A DNA stretch of 64,000 nucleotides. Source: Octopus sinensis. Lineage: Eukaryota. The position numbers were made by a program, and so were the translations under genes. Below, piece by piece: positions 3,898 through 49,500 of this stretch; position 1 is the first letter of the stretch; each line of letters opens with the position of its first letter. The notes below the pieces were generated by a model. That model saw only the letters and a list, made by a program, of their open reading frames with translations, was not told the DNA's origin and ran no database searches. Where the stretch lies: the NCBI RefSeq assembly GCF_006345805.1, contig NC_043017.1, positions 8,556,001 to 8,620,000 on the forward strand, written 5' to 3'.

Positions 3898-3942
3898 TTA
3901 ATATATCAATATATATATATATATATATATATTGGTTATATA

Positions 3943-3986
<44 letters not shown>

Positions 3987-5511
3987 TTTATATATCTATA
4001 TATATATATATATATATATATATTGGTTAATATATCAATATATATATATTGGTTTATATATCAATATATATATAATATATATATATATATAATGGTTCAT
4101 AGTTCATATATCAATATATATATATATTGATTTATATATCAGTATATATATACCCATGCTAGCATGGAAAGCGGACGTTAAACGATGATGATATATATAT
4201 ATATATATTTCTATGGATTTATTTTTATATATATTTTATATGCACACACACACACACACACACACATGTGCACACGCACACACACACTTCTATACATATG
4301 TAGGTACATGTCTATAGATATATTAATATATATGTATGTATATGCAAATGTGTGTGTGTGTAAATGTATTTATCTGTTTATGTGTGTGTGTGTTTGTAAA
4401 TATATGTATGTTTGTGTGTGTGTGGATAAGGAAATGCGAAATCCATTAATATATTAAAACCCACGGCATAAAAAAAAATGTGTGTATATGTGTGTGAGCT
4501 TCTGTATGAATGCGTGTATTTATGCGTGAGTGGATGTTTAATTTTTAATGTTTCATGTTTGTTGATAGAAGTCTTTAAATATTCATTTACGTGGTAAACA
4601 GAAACCTCTTCTGAAAGCTAATATAAAACGTTCTCTTTCTTACCATATACATATGTGTGTATATGTATATATATATATAAATGTGTGTGTGCGTGGGTAT
4701 ATATATATATATATATGTATATATACACACACACACTCACAAAGCACTGGTAATGGTGTCACATAAAAAGCACTGGTGATGGTTCCAAGTATAAAAGAAC
4801 TGATGCTGGTGCCACCTAAGGAGCACTCGGTACATTCTGTAAAGTAGTTGGGGCCAGGAAGGGCATCCGACCATAGAAACCATGCCGTTGCAGACGAGGG
4901 AACCTGGTGCAGGCCCTGGCCTTGCCAACTCCTGTCAAACTGTCCAACCCATGCCATCATGGAAACTGGACGTTAAATGATGATGATGTTGATGATGATG
5001 TAGAAAGGACCATTATTATCATTATTGTCAAGGTGGTGAACTGGGAGAATCATTAGCACACTGGACAGAATGTTTAGTGGTATTTCATGTTTTTACATTC
5101 TGAGTTCAAATTCCAATGAGGTCAGCTTAGCCTTTCATCCTTTCAGGGTCGATAAAATAAATATCAGTTGAACTCTAGGGTCGATATAACTGACTTAGCC
5201 ACTCCTGCAAATTTGCTGGTCTTGTGCCAAAATTGGAAATCATTATTATCATTGATTAGTACAAGGGCAGCTTCTATTGAGCTGACTTAGGTTCAATGTT
5301 TATTGAAACCTTCACAATCATCTCTTTTGTCCCTTTTATCTAGATGTGGTGCTTTTAAAACTTCAATATCCAGTACTTCCTTCTTTGCTCTGGGAGACAT
5401 TAGATTGTGGTATATGAGGAGAGAGATTTGATTGTGATGTCTAGGCAATTAAGGACACCATGTAAGGACTCCTGGTGTCTGTATGTGTATGCAAATTGCC
5501 TTCTGTATGTG

Positions 5512-14833: not shown

Positions 14834-14933
14834 GTATTTCTACGATATTATCATGTTGAAGAATTGGTAGCTCAGTGTGAAAAGATCCGCGAACAGAAAG
14901 TGCTGGAAGAGAAAGCCATCAAAATCCAAAAAA
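14834..14933 (+). CDS. Myo3: Myosin III exon: converter end ([11 protein letters not shown]) and first half of IQ1
   Basis: VFLxYYHVExL is typical of Myo3. ccacAG acceptor; weak donor GTACAG in phase 1, supported because the join gives IQKSYRGHRGRK. Confidence 0.9.
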
Positions 14934-15565
14934 GTACAGTCATTTGTTGTTTGTTTTTTTTTTATTTCTTTGATTCTTTATTTGTTCACTTGAAAATTTT
15001 TTTTTTTAATAATTTTTTATTTATTGATCTATTCTCCCAAGCATTTTAATCAGAACATCTGTTAATAACGCTTTAATTATGGGAATGATGTGATCAATGC
15101 TTTGATCTTAATTATTACCAACGTTTCGTCCTGGACAGGATACAACATATGTTTTTGCCCTTCATTCATTTTATCATAAAATAAAAGTTTTTCAAATGCT
15201 GGTTTAACAGATATTTTCAAATATATTATTATGTGTCTGCCTCGTTAATTACACAACCAGGAAAATAATAGGTGCAGGCGTGGCTGTGTGTGAAGAAGCT
15301 TGCTTCCCAACTACATGGTTCCAGGTTCAGTCCTACTGTATGGCACCTTGGGCTAGTATCTTCTACCATAGCCTTAGGCCAAACAAATCCTTGTGAGTGG
15401 ATTTGGTACACAGAAACTGAAAGAAGCCCATTGTATATATATAAATATATATATAACTCGCTCTGAGATTTATCATTGTTTGATTTCACTTTTTCAATAT
15501 CAGTGTCAAATCGACACTGGAAAATATATGTATTTGTGAAGGGATCTGACTTCTCATCGACAACC

Positions 15566-15626
15566 CATGATGTCACACGCTGATGAAAGGTAAACACCTT
15601 GAAACTCGGGTACGTGTGTAATCATG
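15566..15626 (+). ncRNA. Type I hammerhead ribozyme motif
   Basis: CACACG-CTGATGA-AAGG taaaca CCTT-GAAA-CTCGGG-TA-CGTGTG: complete core, 6-bp stem I extended by CATGAT/ATCATG, 4-bp stem II, GUA cleavage triplet. Confidence 0.75.
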
Positions 15627-15846
15627 TGTTGAAGACGGGGAGGATGACTCCCCTTCACAAATACTGACAGGACACAGATAGTGTGTCTATAGCCAGCTGG
15701 AGGAGATTATCTTCCTGGGGCTACAAACTACAGTAGCATCCACCCTTATGGGTTAGCCATATTCAAATGGCATACATGCATCACTATATATATATATTTA
15801 TATGTTCATGTGTGTGTGTGTAAATTGCTATAATTTATTCTTTTAG

Positions 15847-16047
15847 GTTATCGAGGTCACCGCGGTCGAAAAGTTGCCAAAGTGAAAAAAGAAGAACGAA
15901 AACAACAAGAACAAGCTGCAACTTTAGTGCAGTCGCAATTCAGAGGTTATCAGCAACGAAAGAAAGAGAATAAAAAAAAAGAAAAAAGGAAGCGCAGAGG
16001 ATCGCAATTGACCAACGAGGAACATGCTGCCATTACAATTCAAAGAT
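15847..16047 (+). CDS. Myo3: Myosin III IQ exon (SYRGHRGRK...LVQSQFRGYQQRK...AAITIQR)
   Basis: Not in the ORF track; translated by hand. IQ consensus IQxxxRGxxxR. ttttAG acceptor, GTACGT donor, phase 1-1. Confidence 0.9.
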
Positions 16048-17001: not shown

Positions 17002-17186
17002 CTTACCGAAGATACATGCTGAAGAAATCCAGCAAGAAGATGATGGACGATAGCCAAATCAGGGAAGTCCGTGCAGCAATAATCCTGCAGGCATACTACC
17101 GCACATGGAAGTGCCGTACCTTCTTCCAGCAGCTTCTATTCCTGAAAACCCACAAAGAGATGCAGTATGAAGACTTTGTGGAAGCA
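17002..17186 (+). CDS. Myo3: Myosin III IQ3/IQ4 exon (SYRRYMLKK...AAIILQAYYRTWKCR...EDFVEA)
   Basis: IQ-like motifs. tgtgcAG acceptor, GTAAGT donor, phase 1-0. Confidence 0.9.
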
Positions 17187-22013: not shown

Positions 22014-22950
22014 CAGGGTGTGAGGGGTATTTGAGGACATTTCGTTTTTAGTTCATTACACCTTCAAATTATTTAATGTAGCATTGTTATTTTCCCATAA
22101 CCCTTTCAAGAAATGAAAAAACATGCAGTCATAGTTGCTATACACGCAAACCACAGCGATTTAGAAATTAGCAACTTTCTAAATGTTGCAAGATCTTTTG
22201 AACACAAAGTTCGGTTGGAATTGGAGGCATGTGATGGTAATGTTTCACAATGCTCAGACACTAAAAGGACACTGGAATTTATACAGCATGTTCAAAACAT
22301 TATCGATGAAAACCCCAGAAAGTCAATGACATCCATTGCTAAAAAACTTTGGGTGTCAGAGTGGACTATCAGAACTGTGGTACATCGTGACATTCGATAC
22401 AAGTCCTATGTAATGAGGAAAGGCCAATTCATGTCTAGAAAGACAGGAAAACCGTTTCTTCTGTTGAAAACCTTCATGAACAAGGTTTGCTTTGGTTTTT
22501 CTCTGATGAAGAAACTCTGATCAGGATCAAAAGTCTAACAGAAGAAATGACTGGTGGTTATGTGCAGATCTTTCTGAAGTACCCAGAGTGATGCACACGA
22601 AATTTCCAGCAACTGTGATGGTTTTAGGAATGGTAAGTAGTGAAGGTCATGTGATGCCGCCCCACTTTTTTCTACAGGGTCTTGGAATTAAGGCTGCTGG
22701 ATACATTGAGGTACTGGAAACTGTTATCAAGCCCTGGATTGATGAAGTATGCAATGGGAAGTCATACGTGTTTCAACAAGACTCAGCACCCTCTCACAAA
22801 GCCCTACTCATCCAAGAATGGTCGTCAGATAATTTTTACGATTATGTAGCACCCAATATGTGGCCTCCGAACTCACCAGATTTGAACCCCCATGGACTAC
22901 TACATGTAGAGCGCTGTTGAAAGGGAGACTAATCATCATCCTCATAATAC
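22012..22950 (+). mobile_element. Degenerate, 3'-truncated DD37D (maT) Tc1/mariner-superfamily transposon
   Basis: Starts TA-CAGGGTG after (TA)n. Frameshifted transposase with FSDE, VMVLGMVS, FQQDSAPSH and WPPNSPDLNP(M)DY; 37 residues between the 2nd and 3rd Asp after correcting one frameshift. Confidence 0.85.
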
Positions 22951-28183: not shown

Positions 28184-29192
28184 TGTTAAAGGGACAACTG
28201 TTTGTGGTATATTCAGCCACATTCCACACTATAATACATGATGGGCTTACCTGTAATTTAAAGGACCAGTCTTGATTCTCCCTGATGGTTATATTAACTC
28301 TTTTGTTACTGTATTTATTTTAAGATGCTCTGTGTTTCTTTCAATTCATTTTAAGTATATACAAAGAATTTAGTAAAATAACTAAGTTCTTCTTGTGACT
28401 AAGTTTTGGTGGAAGATTTTCATTCAAATCTTATGAACATAAGATATTTGTACTCAGAGCCAGAGCCGGTTCCAGCCGGGTTGGTAACGAAAGGGTTAAA
28501 GGTTCATGTCTGTGGAATGTCAGCCATTTACATTCCAGGACAACAATTTCTTCTGGCTTTTCATGTTTTAAGTTTAAATAATATTTCTCCATGGTCAGAC
28601 ATGTTTTCTATGACAGATTGGAATTGAGTACTGCTTACAACTATCATATGATGATGATGATGATCATCATCATCATCACCATCATCATCATTACCATCAT
28701 TTTCCATGCTGGCATGGGTTGGACGGTTTGACTGAAAACTGGTAAGCAGGGGAACTGCACCAGGTTCCAATCTGCTTTGGCATGGATTCTATGGGTGGAT
28801 GCCCTTCCTAATGCCAACTACAAGAGTGTAGTGGGTGGTTTTAACATGACAAAAAGACACAACACACACACACACACACATGAAATTCTTTCAGTTTCCA
28901 TTTACCAAATCCAATCACAAAACTTTGGTTGGCCTAGAATTGTAGTAAAAGCTGCTTGCTCTGAGGTGCCACACAGTGGGACTGAACCTGAAACCATGCG
29001 GTTGGGAAGCAAACCTCTTAACCACACAGCCATATCTGTATCTATATTTATATGTATTTATGTGTACATTCGTGTGAGTGTGTGTGTGTGTGAAAGAGAG
29101 TATTTTGTATCCTTTCCATCAATTGTTCTGTTGCAGCCGAAGACTCTGAAGTGAAGAATTTACCAATTTTCTTTTGTTTACTTCATCTTTAG

Positions 29193-31370
29193 GCCAATGC
29201 CAGAGGAATCTTTGCAGACAGATTCTCCAGAGAGCTCTGAGATAATGCCTCGGGCCAATAAACCCTATAACAGCACACAGCATAACTATAAAAAAAGCAT
29301 TGAGTATGATGATCCTCCTGCCCACGTCGGTATTGAGTATGAGAGGGAACAGCCTAGCACTAGTGCTACTAATGCTGTTGTAGTTAGTGATGTGCAGAAT
29401 AGTATGGATAGCAACCAGAAGCAGAATAACATAGAAACTACCATTAGTAATTCAGATTCTTCTGGGAAATGGATTGGGTCTGAACACAATATAGTCGTTG
29501 AGAACTATCAGTTCCCTTTGGAGGAAACGGCCAAGAAAGATAACCCAGAAATTATTAAGGAGCCGGAATATAATCGCAACCCTGTAGTTTTAGTCATTGG
29601 CAATACAAATAAAACAAGCAAAGAGAGTAACCATGTACAAAATAACAGTTGCCGTGTACTGCCTCCTGTTGGGGAAGATCTGACAATGGAGCGAAGGAGC
29701 ATCCGTCCTTCAAGGAAACTGTTGCCAAGTTCTGAAAACAAACTCTCCGCTGGCATTGAAGATGTGCAGTGGAGGGTGGATGAGTCTCGAAATTTTGATA
29801 CCACTGTAAAGCGATCGTCGGAATCGATCAACAAACTGCCAGTAAACGAGGAATACCACTGGATCAATACAATCGACGATTCAATCCGTACGATTTTGAA
29901 CAATCATCGTAGACGTAGTCATGATTTCCGTCAAAGTGGTTTGATGCCGCCTGATGTTAATAGACGAGCAAGTGATGGCGGTGAGATATACAACAACTGT
30001 CGAGTGTGCGAAGACTGCAACCCAGCGAATGTGAGGAACAGTGACTACCAAGAAGCTTGCTACAATGGTGGCCGAAAATTTCCTGTGTGTGCCGAGCCAG
30101 AAAGTTATCCGAAACCGAGTATTGTATTAGATTACCACTTTAACGAAAGCATCGACAATGATAGTATTAGCGTACATTTTGAGAAAGACTCGTGGCCAGA
30201 GATGGAGGATGAAGAAGACGAGGAGGAAGCTTTTCATCCAGCTTGTATTCTAGGAGGCTATTACTGTCAGGCCGATTTCAATGACAATGGGGACGAGACA
30301 AGCACCGATGAGAATGATTGGCCAAGTCTACAGAACTGCTCAGATCAAAACCGCAATGACAAAAACAGCTTATGTAATGAAATCCGGTCAAGAGCTCCCT
30401 GTATAGATACGCGACCCTACAGATCAAGATTTGGACGTAAAGACTTGTATAAATTAAAGAATCACCATTCTCACGAAGACAGAACTAGTTATAGTAGGTG
30501 TCACCTTGTGGAATCTAAACAAAGCCAAGAATTTGGAAATATTCACGCAGCATCTAAGGATTATGATTCCTGTTTAGGTATGAACTTTTTCTTAAGAATG
30601 AGCTTTGACGATGGCAGTCTAGTTGCAATCAGTGAAGAGACAATTAATTTGGAGGAGGCTAGCTCCGTGAATTATAGCGACTCAAATCACAGTGATGCAA
30701 AAGGAAGGACGTCACTGGAAGATTTCGAAAGTATAGGTGGCAGCACAGTCAGTGTGTTTAGTTTAAGTGTAGAGAACGACTCCAATGAACAAGCGTGCAG
30801 TATAAGCACAAACAGTTGTAGCTTTAAATCGAATATGGCTGATTGTGATACGTCCGACATCGAAAGCCAGAGGCCAAGCAGCGATGAGAGCAAGCAAAGC
30901 ATTCCTGAATTAAGTAGTCCTTTATTTCCTGTTGATAGATGTTGGCAAAAACTGGACGATTCCTGGTATTTAGGCAGCTGTGATAACTACTACATAGATA
31001 TTCCTTTTAGCCGTAGTTCTAGTCGAAGTAATTCTAGCTCACCTCTCTTATCTGCTTCCTCTACTGCTGCCACTGTTTCTTCCGACACGTTCGGCCGTTC
31101 AAAAGATTCGCAGTCGTTCATCAACGCCGATTCATCTAGTCCAGAAAATCCGTCCTACAGTAATACTTATCTATTTACCGAAGATCAAAGTAGATCCAGT
31201 TTGAGCAATAGTCATAGTTCTTTAGATACTAATCCATTCCAACCTCATACCATGTCGCCTGGGCATTTATTTAGGCAAAGCAGATCCGTGGAGATTAACA
31301 AAGCCCATGGAAGAGGAGAAATCTCTCAATGCTTGATTGCAAACACCATCGCCAGACCTCGTCTTGTTAA
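29193..31370 (+). CDS. Myo3: Giant 2178-nt exon encoding 726 aa of Ser/Asp/Asn-rich, probably disordered myosin III tail
   Basis: Uninterrupted ORF 29197-31593. Pyrimidine tract plus tttAG at 29191-29192; AA|GTGGGT donor at 31371, after which the sequence turns T-rich. Phase 2-2, in frame with both neighbours. Confidence 0.8.
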
Positions 31371-34300
31371 GTGGGTCTTTCTTCTTCATTTCTTCTTTCT
31401 TTCCTCATCAATGTCGGTTCGTGTTATTTTCCCTTTTTTTCTTTTTTGGTCAGTAATGTTTGTTCATTCAGTGCGTCTTTCTTTCTTTCTTTCTTTCCAC
31501 ATCAGATGTTCGTTCATTTGTGGTTTAATGTCTTGCTCTCAAAACCACACAAAAATGCATGATAACATTTTTTTCTTTCTTACATTGGCATGACTATTTT
31601 TGGTAAAACTATTATTACTGAGACCAAATTGGTTTACTGCCTTGTCTCCTTGCCTGTCCATCTGTTTCCGTTCCTTTGTTGAACTACACACTCAACGCAA
31701 CATATCTTGTTCCATTTCTATAGAATTTTTTTAAAGACATTTTTTTTTTGTTATTGCATCATGTTTCAGACTGTTCCCTTCTGCTATCCGTAGCCTGCAA
31801 GGAACCTTTTTTTTTTTCTTTTTCAACTTTTTTCTTAAATTTAATTATTCTTTAAAATTCTTTATTTAACTCTTATGTTTTTCTTCCATCTTTGCATGTC
31901 TTTGAGATGGGAAATTATACAAATCAAAATATTGAAAAAAATACCAAAAAAAAAACCACCCCAGAATAATGTATTTTTCAAAAAAGGAACATTACTTTCA
32001 AACACATTGTCATCACTGTATTGTTGTGTTACCTAACATGTACACACACACACATACACTTGCACACAATCACACACATACTCACATATGTGTTTGTGTA
32101 GTTATGTGTGTGTGTGTGTGTGTTTGTAAGCATGGTAAAGTGGACGGGAGTTTGCAGGAAATGAATATTACAACACAGTTGTTACTATATTGTTGAAGTC
32201 TTTTCACTAATGATCTTAAGAGAAGCATGAATGTCACATCATCACATATACTCTTCCATTAAAAGAAAAACAAATTTTCCATCTTCAAACTACATGGGAA
32301 TAACAAAAAAACATGGGAGATCATGGTGGTGTACTCTGCTAGAGGCACTACTGTACTCTCTCAAAGACATTGGTCTTCTCTCCTAAAGATGCTATGAAAG
32401 ACTTGAACAAACTAATGTGTAACAGAGACAATCTCTTTAATTTTCTATGTCCCATCAAAAGTGAAGACTCATTCTGACCTAGCAATACTGTGATTCAATG
32501 TAGTTAACCAGCATCTGTGTTTTTCCCAAAGTTTGGTGAAGTACATGTCTGAATCAGAGAACCATGCATCCAGGCAAAAGCAACAGGTTTCTAATTACTA
32601 TAATAATAAATGCAAGGTTTGCACAAATATGTTTTAGAAAATGCTTATTCATATGTTTATAAAGTTAAATACTTGGGTAACTCAATGGGATAGAAGTTGC
32701 ATTATGTGTTTGTCCTTGAATTAAAATTCTTTTTCAATGTCACACATAGGAAGAGTGAATGATATTGCTTAGATAAACAAGGCAGAAAATAATATATATA
32801 TAGTACAGGAAACTGGCAAAAAAATGAGACACGGTGAATTCATTCAGCTACCATCTTTCTACTGAAATACCCTGCATTTGTTTCAATTAGTTTTGAAATT
32901 AGTGAAGAATTTAGCAAAATATTTGCTATTATTAAGTTGTTGTTTGGAACATAAACTAACATAGAATTTTGATGAAAGTTTTTAATTTAGATTGCTTAAA
33001 CCTTTTTGCCATATTTCTGTTGAACTATTGTGCATTCATTTCAATTTCAAAAATAATAAAAAATTTAATAGAATAACTGTCATTATTCAGCTGGTGTTTG
33101 GAATATAAATTAACTTAGAACTTTGATAGAAGGTTTTGATGTCAATCACTTGAATCCTTTTGTTACCATATCTCTACAGAAATACATGACCTTTGTTTCA
33201 ATTGCTTTTTTTTAATACTGAAGAATTTAGTGAAATAACTGTCATTATTAAGGTGATATTTATAAGGTAGCAAGCTGGCAGAATGACAAGCATGCTGAGC
33301 AAAATGCTTAGCAGTATTTCACCTGTCTTTACATTCTGGGTTCAAATTCCACCGAGGTTAGCTTTGCCTTTCATCCTTTTGAGGTTGATAAATTAAGTAT
33401 CAATTGAGTGTTGGGGTTGATGTGATCGATTGATCCCCTCCTCAAAAATTCCAGGCCTTGTGCCTACAGTGGAAAGGATTATTGGGGTGATGTTAGGGAC
33501 ATAAATCACAATGAAATTTTAATGGAACTTTTTAATGAGGATCACTTGGAAACAGAAAATTTGTATCTTGGTAAACCAAGGCAGTTTCAGGCAGGTTCGT
33601 ATCAAAGGGGTTAAACAAAGCTTGTTCGTTAAGACTAGCTTAAATTAAAGTTTGCATATGAAAAACAGAATTCTGTTTTAGTGGTACTGACTTCTAATGG
33701 AAAAAACAAAGTGGAAACAACTTAAATTCTGCTTATAAAGCCAAAAATAGCCAAAATATTATATATACTGGCCTCTGAAAGTCCAGAAAAACTAATGAAA
33801 AGCAATTACTAAAATGTCACCAGGGCATAGTATGGCTGAATGGTTGAGAAGTTCTCTTCACAACCATGAGGTCCTGGGTTCAATCACATGTGGGGTACTA
33901 GGAAAATTTCATTTTCTTTAACTTTGGGGCGACTCATACCTTATTAGTATAATGAGGCAGAGAGTAACTGTGTTGGATGGATTGTGGTTGTAATTCAAAG
34001 ATATAGTTTTGTTTGCACTCACTGTTTCATGTTAATTCTGCCTCAGGGTTTCATTAAAGACACATGTGTCTCCTTCATGTTAATTCAGTTGATTAAAACC
34101 TGAAACCTCATTGTTGAAAGCTGGAAATCTATTCATGAATATACAAATATATATATAGATAAAACTTACTTGGAAAAGGATGCGTGGTGTTCGATCATAT
34201 AATAATATATCATCATCATCATCGATTAACGTCCATTTTCCATGCTGGCATAGGTTGGATGGTTTGACTGAGGTCTGGCGAGCCAGATGGCTGCACCAGG

Positions 34301-46566: not shown

Positions 46567-49500
46567 TTTCTATATTTTTTGTGTTTGTTTTTGATTTTTT
46601 TTTTTTTTTGGTTAAAGATTCCTCAAAAAAGGCTCACACAACACTTAATTGAATTACACCGCGTTTGGTAAATTTTTTACTAAAACGGACAAATTGAAAG
46701 ATAGGTAATATAGCCAGCAACTGTGTGAAATATCAGAAGAATGCTATCAACTATAATAGAGTAGTAGAAAGACCTAGCAAGCTCCCCTGCTTCTCTCTCT
46801 CTTCACCCCTAACCCTTTATAGTCACATCTCCTTCATTCTTCCTCCTGTTGACATTTGAGTTTTTCTTCCCTGTGAGAAACAAAATCCAGTTTGACTTTT
46901 TAATTTATGAATTCAACTTTTTATTTGTCTCAAGCCATGACAAAAAGAAAAAAAATGTATGGAAGAACATTATGAAAATGGAAACCTGGCAAAAAAATGT
47001 ATGGAAGAACATTAAGAGCAATATTACTTAGATATTTCAGTTCTATAGAAACCTATACATACAATACTACTTACCTCTGACTTGTGTGCTGTAATAGTCT
47101 CACCACCACAAACACCACACCTAGGTCTGGTCCCTGTATTTCAATATGTTGGACCCGTGTGCACATCTTATATCAATAGACCTTTTTCTCTTTAGTTCAA
47201 AGCTGTATTTATTATTCAAACTTACACAACTCCATCTTGTCTAATTATCACCCTACCTGTGTCTCTATGAAAGTATGTGTGGCTGGAGAGAGAAAAAAAA
47301 ACCATGTCATTATCTCCCTTCCCAATTTATGTAAAACCTAAACACACAGACACACACACACATCAGTGGCATAGCTAGAGTGTGTGTGTGTGTATGCGTG
47401 TGTGCCATCCAGGGGCAGCCCTTGAGTTTGCTGAGCCTCCAAAACCTAAATGATTTTACAGCAACCTCCAAGTTTACTGCCTTCACAAAAGCGTGACCTA
47501 GGGTGGACTGCCCCCACCTCCCTAGTTACGCAACCAACACACAATTTACATGATTAAATATGAAGCCTGATCTATGATTAAACCTAAGTACACCTGTTTA
47601 TATTTATTCACTCATCTCTCTCTCTCTCTTTTCTGTATGTCTTGTGTGTTGAGAAACTTATTGATTCTATCTTTTAGTTTATGTAATGAAAGAAAAATTA
47701 GGCAAAACCTTACCTTAAATTTGAGGGCAAATCTAAAACTGAACACAAAATGTCTACATTTATATTTTTAAAATTTAGTTTGAATGCTGGCATATAGGAT
47801 TTTCATGAAGGAGGATCAGTTAAGAGATAGAAGCAGAGACAAATTGTGCGCCATATATTGGAGGGATATTGAGGGTCTTTTTTTGAAACAGATTTTGGTA
47901 TTAGGGACCAGGAAATAACATTGAGTTTTATACATTGGTATAACATAACTACGTTAAGATTAGAACCAACAAGTGATAATTCACTGAGTGGTTTACACAT
48001 ACAAAGCATCTATTGTGATTTAACCGACAAGGAAGCTTGTCATACCGGTGTGTGACTTGTCATACAGCCTCTTATATAACAGATTTTGTTAACCCAATTT
48101 TGAAAGGGCTGTTTGTTGTCCCTAATTCTTTCATGATTGAGGATGTGTTCTGTTTATTTATTTATTGTTTCTGAAACAAAATAAAAAAGAGAGAGAAAAC
48201 TCCTTCTATAATTCGCTATGCCCCTCCGACTTCACTCTCTCGCTATGTTAGGTACATAATGTATTATATTGTTTTGCAAATATTCTCATCTTTAATTAGT
48301 TACTAATCCGACAGAAATAGCTTTATCAAATGGCAATTAGAATAAACTATAGATGAACTTCCAGGAAATTCTGCACATTTTTCCTTTTCAGTGTACACAT
48401 GTATGTGCATATATATGACAATAAATGCATCTATATTTAAACATATATGTACATACTTAGAAGTTTGAATTTGTATGTAAAGTTGTTATAGCTGAATCAT
48501 GCTTTGCATTCAAACCTTCTTGTCCCTGGTAGGAAATTATGCTCTATTTTTCTTTCTCTTTTTGGTTACAATAATGTCAGCCAGGTTCTTTCTTGTTTAC
48601 ATTTTAAGAAGCAACTTTCCACTTACGAATCAACTCTTTGGAACAGAGAAGGGTCAGTACATTCTGATGAGTATTAAAGAAGGTGAAACTCATCAGTCCA
48701 ATTCTCGTCCCAAGCAGCCGAAAAGAGCCTTGTGCTTAGATAACAGGGCCTAATTTCACAGCGAAACTACTTCTGAATAAAGTATTTTCTGTATCGCTTT
48801 TCTGTAAACAAGAAGACCTGTTAGTTCAGAGAAACCCTGTCAGTATTTTATCTTGCTTCCCTTTGCTCCTCCAATATTGGTAATATAACATCATCGAATA
48901 CTTTTAAACTGTCACCAATTCTTAAATCCACTCCCACCTTTTCACTTCCTTGTTATTGCCAGATTTATCAAAGACACATGTTTTTCGTGACTAATTTTTT
49001 CGGTGAAAAGGAGTAAGAAAGATCGCCTAAAATGGACATATCTTCTTGCAGAAATGTTTCTATCGAGCGTTTGTAACTAAACTAAGTCTGATAACAGTTT
49101 TCTTTGGGTTTTTTTTTTTTCTCCATTTGATAAACACAAGTCATTGACGAGATGCAGCAAGATGAATTTTTAATCCTGCAAATGTGGCAAACCACATTTT
49201 TTGTTTTAACTAATCAGATACGTTATTGATTATTGCTGCAGAATAGATTTAAAGACTTATCATATTAATCTGAATAATGATAATGGTGTGACATGGCTGG
49301 TACAAAAACTGGTTGTCATCTATGTTATATAGGCCAGCGTGTTAAAAGGTTAGACAACCAAAATAGAGGAGAAAAAAAAGAGAAAACAATCAACAACTGT
49401 TATCAAGAAACGGCTTCGAACTGGTTTAGTCTGACAATAAATAAACCAGACATTGTTTTTTGGGTTTTTTTTTTGTTTTCAATGGAAAAAGAATAAAAAA

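What the first reader, a model, noticed from the sequence alone, without database searches (positions are those of the whole stretch)
15566..15626. Near-intact hammerhead ribozyme on the sense strand of a myosin III intron
Seen: CACACG CTGATGA AAGG-taaaca-CCTT GAAA CTCGGG TA CGTGTG. This has the complete CUGAUGA/GAAA/GUA core, a perfect 6-bp stem I extended by CATGAT/ATCATG, and a minimal near-palindromic stem III. It lies in an approximately 330-bp non-coding unit between TA tracts (about 15460-15785), about 220 nt upstream of the exon completing IQ1. Known: minimal type I hammerheads with palindromic stem III occur in Penelope-like elements and retrozymes and can cleave as dimers. Inference: it is transcribed as part of every pre-mRNA spanning this intron and could cut it. 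The 10.1-11.1 pair is A-U rather than G-C, which may lower activity.
Basis: partly seen in the sequence, partly recalled or inferred. Interest (0 to 1): 0.8.

Follow-up and report, generated by a model that had tools for sequence, protein, structure and literature searches.

The report
Octopus retrozyme copy in myosin intron
A complete hammerhead-ribozyme sequence lies in an intron of an octopus myosin III gene as one of over a thousand related copies of a small non-coding mobile repeat, likely spread by Penelope-type retrotransposons, and this lone copy is predicted to cut weakly because it lacks the second copy it would need to pair with.

Summary
The motif is real: a complete canonical type I hammerhead at 15574-15618, sense in an intron of a class III myosin gene. 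It is not a host element. It is the middle of one 333-nt copy (15452-15784) of a 353-nt repeat. The genome holds 105 exact copies of the core and 1,455 family-pattern cores, with tandem arrays, 5' truncation, inverted partners, (TA)n targets and a 43-46-nt one-sided tail, all marks of Penelope-like elements. Stems covary across subfamilies. Verdict: a new octopus family of non-LTR retrozymes. Folding predicts a locked monomer (+6.1 kcal/mol) and an accessible dimer (+1.7 to +3.0), so this solo copy probably cuts slowly. One contig from a probable RNA run shows the intron spliced exactly, though that animal may lack the insertion. Cleavage, circular RNA and the partner element are untested or unfound; Rfam misses the motif. 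Two paper searches found no cephalopod report; one relevant supplement was unreadable. The scan earlier noted a similar TA-targeted repeat without a ribozyme in another genome.

The parts
15452..15784 (+). Single, 5'-truncated copy (unit positions 1-333, 'body' 3' end, no tail) of a 353-nt non-coding repeat, non-LTR retrozyme subfamily A
   Evidence: 97% to a natural 353-nt unit in L005; 82 matches among 40 scored candidates genome-wide
15574..15618 (+). Type I hammerhead: stem I 15574-79/15613-18, CUGAUGA 15580-86, stem II 15587-15600, GAAA 15601-04, stem III 15604-11, A17 15612
   Evidence: sequence; only full-descriptor hit in window, 1 of 300 shuffles; covariation
15612..15613 (+). Predicted cleavage site, after GUA
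   Evidence: hammerhead numbering; cleavage not tested
15604..15611 (+). Near-palindromic stem III/loop 3; can form an 8-bp duplex with a second copy (-8.9 kcal/mol; -10.7 for the perfect palindrome of subfamily B)
15566..15626 (+). Distal helix I (15566-71/15621-26) and internal loop holding unpaired U1.7 (15619). This copy carries private indels near 15566, 15570 and 15620 that change the family's 3x1 loop into a 2x2 loop
   Evidence: U invariant at 1.7 in 23 of 23 aligned rows
15530..15664 (+). Long rod enclosing the ribozyme, closed by a perfect 14-bp inverted repeat 15530-43/15651-64
15266..15432 (+). High-copy SINE-like repeat whose TA-rich tail received the insertion
   Evidence: 9 hits in the window; 2 of the 6 other copies printed run into TA-rich tails; extreme depth; SINE label recalled
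15433..15455 (.). (TA)n tract 5' of the insertion
15785..15803 (.). (TA)n tract 3' of the insertion
14834..14933 (+). Myosin III exon ending inside IQ1
   Evidence: AG/GT ends; joined to 15847 in contig X1 record 1
14934..15846 (+). Host intron, 913 nt, GT..AG
15847..16047 (+). Myosin III exon completing IQ1 and holding a further IQ motif
   Evidence: Pfam IQ E=3.9e-7

Best explanation
The motif is the hammerhead of a solo copy of a 353-nt non-coding repeat family, likely a non-LTR retrozyme mobilised by a Penelope-like element, that landed in the TA tail of a SINE inside a myosin III intron and is predicted to be largely inactive there. SHOWN: motif, family size, tandem/inverted/tailed insertion structure, (TA)n target, stem covariation, host gene and strand. 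INFERRED: tandem loci are transcribed; two adjacent hammerheads swap stem I strands, pair their palindromic stem III and cut out a 353-nt monomer; the monomer is probably ligated to a circle, as in mussel and axolotl retrozymes; a PLE reverse transcriptase/GIY-YIG endonuclease primes at (TA)n from a fixed point in the unit and copies the circle or an uncut multimer. In a solo copy the CUGA core pairs with the UCGG loop (predicted), so cis cleavage of the pre-mRNA should be slow and of little effect on splicing.
For: 105 exact 33-mer cores (50 +, 55 -; control 0); 1,455 family-pattern cores; 2,073 exact matches to a sister-subfamily 17-mer. Unit 353 nt, head to tail, with same-strand cores 352-353 nt apart and up to 5 in a row. 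In 88 de-duplicated subfamily-A loci: 41 are head-to-head inverted, of which 32 pair one 'body' end (unit 328-340) with one 'tail' end (22-33 of the next unit), 0 are body/body, 0 tail/tail and 9 have an unclassified end; 46 are one-directional (27 tail, 18 body, 1 other); 1 is complex. 105 of 120 classified ends run into TA repeats (before de-duplication). Craig et al. (PMC8557442, passages) list partial tandems, inverted 5'-truncated copies, a 30-40-bp tail at one end and microsatellite bias as PLE marks. Covariation: 20 cells changed on both sides against 8.5 in shuffles (0 of 500); 8 of 19 pairs; slid controls 22-56% paired against 89%. Folding: monomer active fold +6.1 kcal/mol, even within the whole intron; natural dimers +1.7, +2.7 and +3.0 for both ribozymes. 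A young PLE family with open RT-CxxC-GIY-YIG frames that also ends in (TA)n is in the genome.
Against: No cleavage, circular RNA or strand-specific RNA data were available. No RNA holder was on record, and the runs are contigs only. No 3' end among the 88 loci lies at the ribozyme cut (unit 163/164), and only 2 of 131 chain starts lie next to it, so cleaved linear monomers are not visibly the templates and the ribozyme's role in spread is not shown. Subfamilies with a U4C core (13 of the first 100 listed, hand count) or a mismatch at 10.1-11.1 (13 of 16 distinct rows unpaired) also amplified. The one PLE family examined shares no sequence with the unit, so the partner is not identified. Covariation counts are sequences, not independent events; the pattern used to collect them fixed the core and part of stem II, and the window row is misaligned in the distal helix. 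Nearest-neighbour energies ignore core and loop-loop stabilisation, and solo coral and mussel retrozymes do cleave (0.8 and 0.1 per min; PMC7229834). Rfam has no hit.
Confidence: 0.8

Rival explanations
1. The copy self-cleaves as a monomer fast enough to cut a real fraction of myosin III pre-mRNAs, lowering or tuning expression.
For: Sense orientation; complete core; stems I and II form with P>=0.99 in the whole intron; U1.7 and the loop-2 terminal A of the tertiary contact are present (contact described in PMC11875169 passages); a 2-bp helix III is normal in invertebrate hammerheads that cut as monomers (PMC7229834).
Against: P(stem III) is about 0 and the active fold costs +6.1 kcal/mol; A-U at 10.1-11.1 and GUA (somewhat slower than GUC after transcription, though fastest during transcription in ELVd, PMC1636495); slow intronic ribozymes did not affect splicing (Fong 2009 as cited in PMC10919898; original not held); the cut lies only 234 nt from the 3' splice site; one of 105 or more dispersed young copies; intron spliced in one contig (genotype unknown).
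Confidence: 0.1
2. The unit is the pseudo-LTR or an internal-deletion derivative of an autonomous PLE, and copies are truncated PLE ends rather than an RNA element with its own cycle.
For: All integration marks are PLE marks; Xenopus retrozymes resemble pLTRs (bioRxiv 10.64898/2026.07.22.740005, parts 1-3 of 5 read).
Against: The unit closes on itself at 353 nt in tandem arrays. No shared PLE ORF adjoins it in 60 loci with about 4-kb flanks; the PLE ORF near L079/L080 is a separate insertion. The PLE family examined has a different 3' end and a different ribozyme-like motif.
Confidence: 0.07
3. The ribozyme is now a passenger: the family spreads through uncut multimeric transcripts and hammerhead activity is dispensable or lost in subfamily A.
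For: No insertion ends at the cut site; U4C and mismatch subfamilies amplified; 8 of 9 Xenopus dimers showed no cleavage; an unchecked scan note reports a TA-targeted PLE-type repeat with no ribozyme.
Against: Core letters and helices are kept, with compensatory changes, across subfamilies 75-93% identical; stem III stays self-complementary; the most frequently listed subfamily (49 of the first 100, hand count) has the textbook G-C, palindrome and GUC.
Confidence: 0.25

Closest known systems
Animal non-LTR retrozymes (coral, mussel Mytilus ~350-390 nt, axolotl 331/353 nt; Cervera & de la Pena 2020, PMC7229834; read parts 2-4 of 6 and passages; supplement not readable)
   Same: 150-450-nt non-coding unit with one type I hammerhead, GC below 50% (42%), highly paired predicted circle (64% paired), tandem and solo copies, 2-bp helix III with tetraloop, variant at the base of helix II (as HHR_Amex2), PLEs in the same genome
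   Different: New sequence family in a cephalopod; mostly 1-2 units (up to 5 seen); no target-site duplication discernible in (TA)n; monomer predicted locked by core-loop 3 pairing, whereas the paper says most metazoan circles leave the ribozyme free; circular RNA not shown here
Penelope-like elements (Neptune/Naiad type) and their non-autonomous derivatives (Craig et al. 2021, PMC8557442, passages; Li et al. 2026 bioRxiv)
   Same: 5' truncation, partial tandems, inverted 5'-truncated partner, one-sided tail, (TA)n target
   Different: No ORF; tail 43-46 nt rather than 30-40; canonical rather than minimal hammerhead; no homology to the one resident PLE family tested
Satellite-borne hammerheads of newts, Schistosoma and Dolichopoda crickets (PMC2837043 passages; PMC4209133 part 1 and passages)
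   Same: Canonical type I fold, short palindromic helix III, dimer cleavage, compensatory changes also at 10.1-11.1
   Different: Dispersed TA-targeted insertions rather than long satellite arrays
Intronic self-cleaving ribozymes with host roles (CPEB3, PMC10919898 passages; ultraconserved amniote intronic hammerheads, title seen in reference lists only)
   Same: Sense strand of an intron
   Different: Those are single-copy and deeply conserved; this is one young copy of a mobile family, 234 nt from the 3' splice site; conservation of the site is untested

Membership tests
Type I hammerhead ribozyme (canonical metazoan form) | Core CUGANGA / GAAA / UH with helices I-III | tested here: met
Type I hammerhead ribozyme (canonical metazoan form) | Helices supported by covariation | tested here: met
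   8 of 19 pairs change on both sides; related sequences, so not a probability
Type I hammerhead ribozyme (canonical metazoan form) | Conserved G10.1-C11.1 pair | tested here: not met
   A-U in subfamily A; G-C in subfamily B; mismatches in others; natural exceptions are known
Type I hammerhead ribozyme (canonical metazoan form) | Loop 1-loop 2 tertiary contact (unpaired U1.7, loop-2 terminal A) | tested here: inconclusive
   Both letters invariant in 23 rows; contact not modelled; this copy's loop 1 altered by indels
Type I hammerhead ribozyme (canonical metazoan form) | Match to Rfam hammerhead models | tested here: not met
Type I hammerhead ribozyme (canonical metazoan form) | Self-cleavage after H17 | not testable with these tools
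   needs an in vitro assay or raw RNA ends
Non-LTR retrozyme | 150-450-nt non-coding unit, one type I hammerhead per unit | tested here: met
   353 nt
Non-LTR retrozyme | Tandem loci with two or more intact hammerheads | tested here: met
   family level: 3 subfamily-A dimers among the first 100 of 105 sites listed; 5-mer in B; this copy is solo
Non-LTR retrozyme | Low GC and highly self-paired circle | tested here: met
   GC 0.42, 64% paired, -128.6 kcal/mol circular; z -7.0 linear
Non-LTR retrozyme | Accumulates as linear and circular monomer RNA | tested here: inconclusive
   Only contigs of runs guessed to be RNA; contigs cross the cut (X1, X8) and the unit region; cannot show ends, strand or circularity
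Non-LTR retrozyme | Co-resident autonomous PLE | tested here: met
   partner identity not shown
Penelope-like element insertion | 5' truncation, partial tandem, inverted partner, one-sided tail, microsatellite target | tested here: met
Penelope-like element (autonomous) | RT + GIY-YIG ORF | tested here: not met
   no ORF in the unit; none attached in 60 loci with about 4-kb flanks
Minimal PLE hammerhead (min-HHR) | Helix II of 7-8 bp, helix I of 4-5 bp, extra nucleotide between 9 and 10.1 | tested here: not met
   helix I 6+6 bp, helix II 4-5 bp, no extra nucleotide
Domesticated intronic ribozyme | Single copy, conserved at the orthologous site across species | tested here: inconclusive
   multi-copy; the listed contigs of two large, presumably DNA runs break at the TA tract, so presence at the site is unknown

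The most novel reading that the evidence does not exclude
Solo sense-strand intronic copies are half-ribozymes switched on in trans: abundant retrozyme RNA from tandem loci pairs with the intronic copy through the palindromic stem III and swapped stem I and cuts the host pre-mRNA. A mobile RNA family would then act as a sequence-specific nuclease network on myosin III and every other gene carrying a sense insertion.
Probability: 0.05. Interest if true: 0.85.

Novelty: new member of a known kind. Interest (0 to 1): 0.38.

Why it matters
As a host-gene switch it probably does not matter. As a family it extends non-LTR retrozymes to cephalopods, where my searches found no report, and gives a clean natural data set on two open questions. 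First, how PLE machinery integrates: a 353-nt cargo with over a thousand ribozyme-bearing copies shows a strict rule that inverted insertions carry one tailed and one untailed end 43-46 nt apart (32 of 32 classifiable loci). Second, whether the hammerhead is needed for spread: subfamilies with textbook, variant and core-mutant ribozymes all amplified, and no insertion ends at the cut site.

Tried and rejected
Rfam scans found no hammerhead hit. The core-only pattern is at chance level; four other core-like matches in the window fail the stem test. Run search: no RNA holder listed; contigs of guessed RNA runs cannot show ends, strand or level, so expression and circularity were not judged. Presence or absence of the insertion in other animals could not be read, because the listed contigs stop at the TA tract. 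The search for an autonomous partner found no ORF attached in 60 loci and no homology to 30 loci of one PLE family beyond independent retrozyme insertions; other PLE families were not examined. The PDB search with the 33-aa exon gave only chance hits. The 17-nt inverted match between the two TA flanks was judged likely chance in self-complementary TA and not followed. 'A-U is decay of this copy' is rejected. 'Minimal PLE hammerhead' is rejected. Earlier scan notes: none by sequence or in this genome. Literature: 'retrozyme/hammerhead/octopus' (20 of 97 listed) and 'hammerhead ribozyme/cephalopod/Penelope' gave no cephalopod retrozyme report; the 2026 O. vulgaris repeat annotation has 0 mentions of ribozyme, hammerhead or retrozyme in its main text. 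The supplement of PMC7229834 could not be read, the bioRxiv supplements were not seen, and Repbase and Dfam are not searchable here, so the family may already be listed under another name.

Full report
1. Observation. Stem I is 15574-79 with 15613-18, the core CUGAUGA is 15580-86, stem II is 15587-15600, GAAA is 15601-04, stem III has 2 bp and a UCGG loop, and GUA puts the cut after 15612. The core pattern alone is at chance level (5 found, 2.67 expected). With all stems required it is the only hit in the window, and 1 of 300 shuffles gave a hit. Rfam does not detect it. By the definition in Cervera & de la Pena 2014 (PMC4209133, part 1 and passages read) it is the canonical metazoan type I form, not the minimal PLE form.

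2. Host gene. Exon 11319-11438 matches Myosin_head, and exons at 15849-16046 and 17004-17162 match IQ. Kinase-motif exons lie 70-100 kb upstream on the same strand (2 of 4 tested hit Pkinase). The long downstream exon is 100% identical, over 58% of its length, to a protein named myosin-IIIb-like [Octopus sinensis]. A 6,184-nt contig from run X1 (RNA by guess) joins 14933 to 15847, so the intron is 14934-15846 and the ribozyme is in the sense strand, 234 nt before the 3' splice site. Whether that animal carries the insertion is unknown.

3. What the ribozyme belongs to. The stretch 15452-15784 is a dispersed repeat. A DNA search gave 82 matches among 40 scored candidates, with full-length copies 94-98% identical. 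The 33-nt core occurs exactly 105 times. Copies run on through 20 further bases into the start of the same sequence, closing a 353-nt unit; the window copy is unit 1-333. Variant letters led to sister subfamilies: 2,073 exact hits of a 17-mer and 1,455 family-pattern cores, with arrays of up to five units at 353-nt spacing. Subfamily B (49 of the first 100 listed, hand count) has G10.1-C11.1, a perfect palindrome in stem III and GUC. Subfamily A, this copy's, is 9 of those 100 and has A-U, a near-palindrome and GUA. Others have U.U or C.A at 10.1-11.1, or U4C. I aligned 22 of 30 loci plus the window; 4 were dropped as 5'-truncated in the region and 4 as near-duplicates or indel-rich. In 16 distinct rows, 88.8% of cells pair and 8 of 19 pairs change on both sides (20 cells against 8.5 in shuffles; slid controls 22-56% paired). 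These rows are related, and the collecting pattern fixed part of the motif, so this supports but does not prove selection. Pair 10.1-11.1 is unpaired in 13 of 16 rows.

4. How copies integrate. In 88 de-duplicated subfamily-A loci (90 fetched; L026 and L080 dropped as overlap or duplicate; a few others share a flank) the 5' ends are scattered and the 3' ends fall in two classes: 'body' at unit 328-340 and 'tail' 43-46 nt further on. 41 loci are head-to-head inversions; 32 of them have one end of each class, none has two alike, and 9 have an unclassified end. 46 loci are one-directional (27 tail, 18 body, 1 other) and 1 is complex. 105 of 120 classified ends run into TA repeats. Craig et al. 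2021 (PMC8557442, passages) describe partial tandems, inverted 5'-truncated partners, a 30-40-bp tail at one end and microsatellite bias as marks of Penelope-like elements. The window copy is a one-directional body-end insertion in the TA tail of a SINE-like repeat. A young PLE family with RT, CxxC linker and GIY-YIG is present and also ends in (TA)n, but it shares no sequence with the unit, so the partner is inferred by kind only. No 3' end lies at the ribozyme cut and only 2 of 131 chain starts lie next to it (the sample is biased to ribozyme-containing loci). Templates therefore look like circles or uncut multimers, and these data cannot separate the two.

5. Is this copy active? Stems I and II form with P>=0.99 in the whole intron, but CUGA pairs with the UCGG loop, and the active monomer fold costs 6.1 kcal/mol. 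The same holds for ordinary A copies (6.1) and for B (6.6). In three natural dimers the strand-swapped double hammerhead costs only 1.7, 2.7 and 3.0 kcal/mol for both ribozymes, against 12-16 for two monomers. This fits the known rule that a short helix III impedes monomer cleavage and the axolotl data (6-22% in 1 h as monomer, efficient as dimer; PMC7229834). Against it, coral and mussel monomers cut at 0.8 and 0.1 per min, the model ignores tertiary contacts, and U1.7 and the loop-2 A are kept. Slow intronic ribozymes left splicing unaffected in Fong et al. 2009, as cited in PMC10919898 (the original was not held). The copy also has five private indels, an outlier among 108 segments, which may be assembly errors. 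RNA evidence is limited to contigs of runs guessed to be RNA; two contigs cross the cut site, which cannot tell uncut RNA from religated RNA or DNA.

6. Comparison and novelty. It works like, and meets every sequence-testable feature of, the animal non-LTR retrozymes (PMC7229834; bioRxiv 10.64898/2026.07.22.740005, parts 1-3 of 5 read). Self-cleavage and circular RNA, the functional criteria, could not be tested. It is not an autonomous PLE and not a minimal PLE hammerhead. Intronic location is ordinary for such elements (42-44% of Xenopus copies). Searches and the O. vulgaris repeat paper gave no cephalopod report, but one relevant supplement was unreadable and repeat databases were not searchable. 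An unchecked scan note describes a similar TA-targeted repeat with a tRNA instead of a ribozyme in another genome.

7. Verdict. This is a new member of a known kind: a solo, probably weak copy of an octopus retrozyme family. Interest 0.38, carried by the family (strict one-sided tail rule, ribozyme variants across subfamilies) more than by this insertion. The boldest reading not excluded is trans-activation of solo intronic copies by family RNA (probability 0.05).

Noticed in passing
G000 loci L001-L090; sister subfamilies L091-L160: Head-to-head inverted insertions pair one untailed end (unit 328-340) with one tailed end (22-33 of the next unit): 32 of 32 classifiable, never two of a kind. 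The same pattern is visible in sister subfamilies.
   Followed up: yes
G000 C1 sites listed: Subfamilies with CCGAUGA (U4C; 13 of the first 100 listed, hand count) and with C.A or U.U at 10.1-11.1 have amplified, which suggests that ribozyme activity may not be needed for copying.
   Followed up: partly
window 15452-15784: This copy has 5 gap openings and 3 mismatches against a natural unit, while 73 of 108 segments have no gap and only 5 have 3 or more. Contigs mostly show the family letters. The indels, three of them in or beside distal helix I, may be assembly errors.
   Followed up: partly
L060, L066, L076, L079, L080 at about 3940-4010: The same 5'-truncated retrozyme (from unit position about 105) with the same upstream flank recurs beside LINE-like ORFs at several loci; it may have been copied as a passenger of that LINE.
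   Followed up: partly
L080:5850-8001 (-) and L161-L190: Young PLE family (RT, CxxC linker, GIY-YIG; copies 89-100% identical, open frames up to about 1000 aa) ending sharply in (TA)n, with a minimal-hammerhead-like motif that has U at position 3.
   Followed up: partly
window 48664-48698 (+): Hammerhead-core-like string inside a short inverted repeat; fails the stem test.
   Followed up: partly
window 22510-22917 (+): Fragment that looks like a Tc1/mariner transposase (label recalled) in a downstream intron.
   Followed up: no
window 29155-31590 (+): An 812-codon open frame, a very long exon of the myosin III tail, with no Pfam match.
   Followed up: partly
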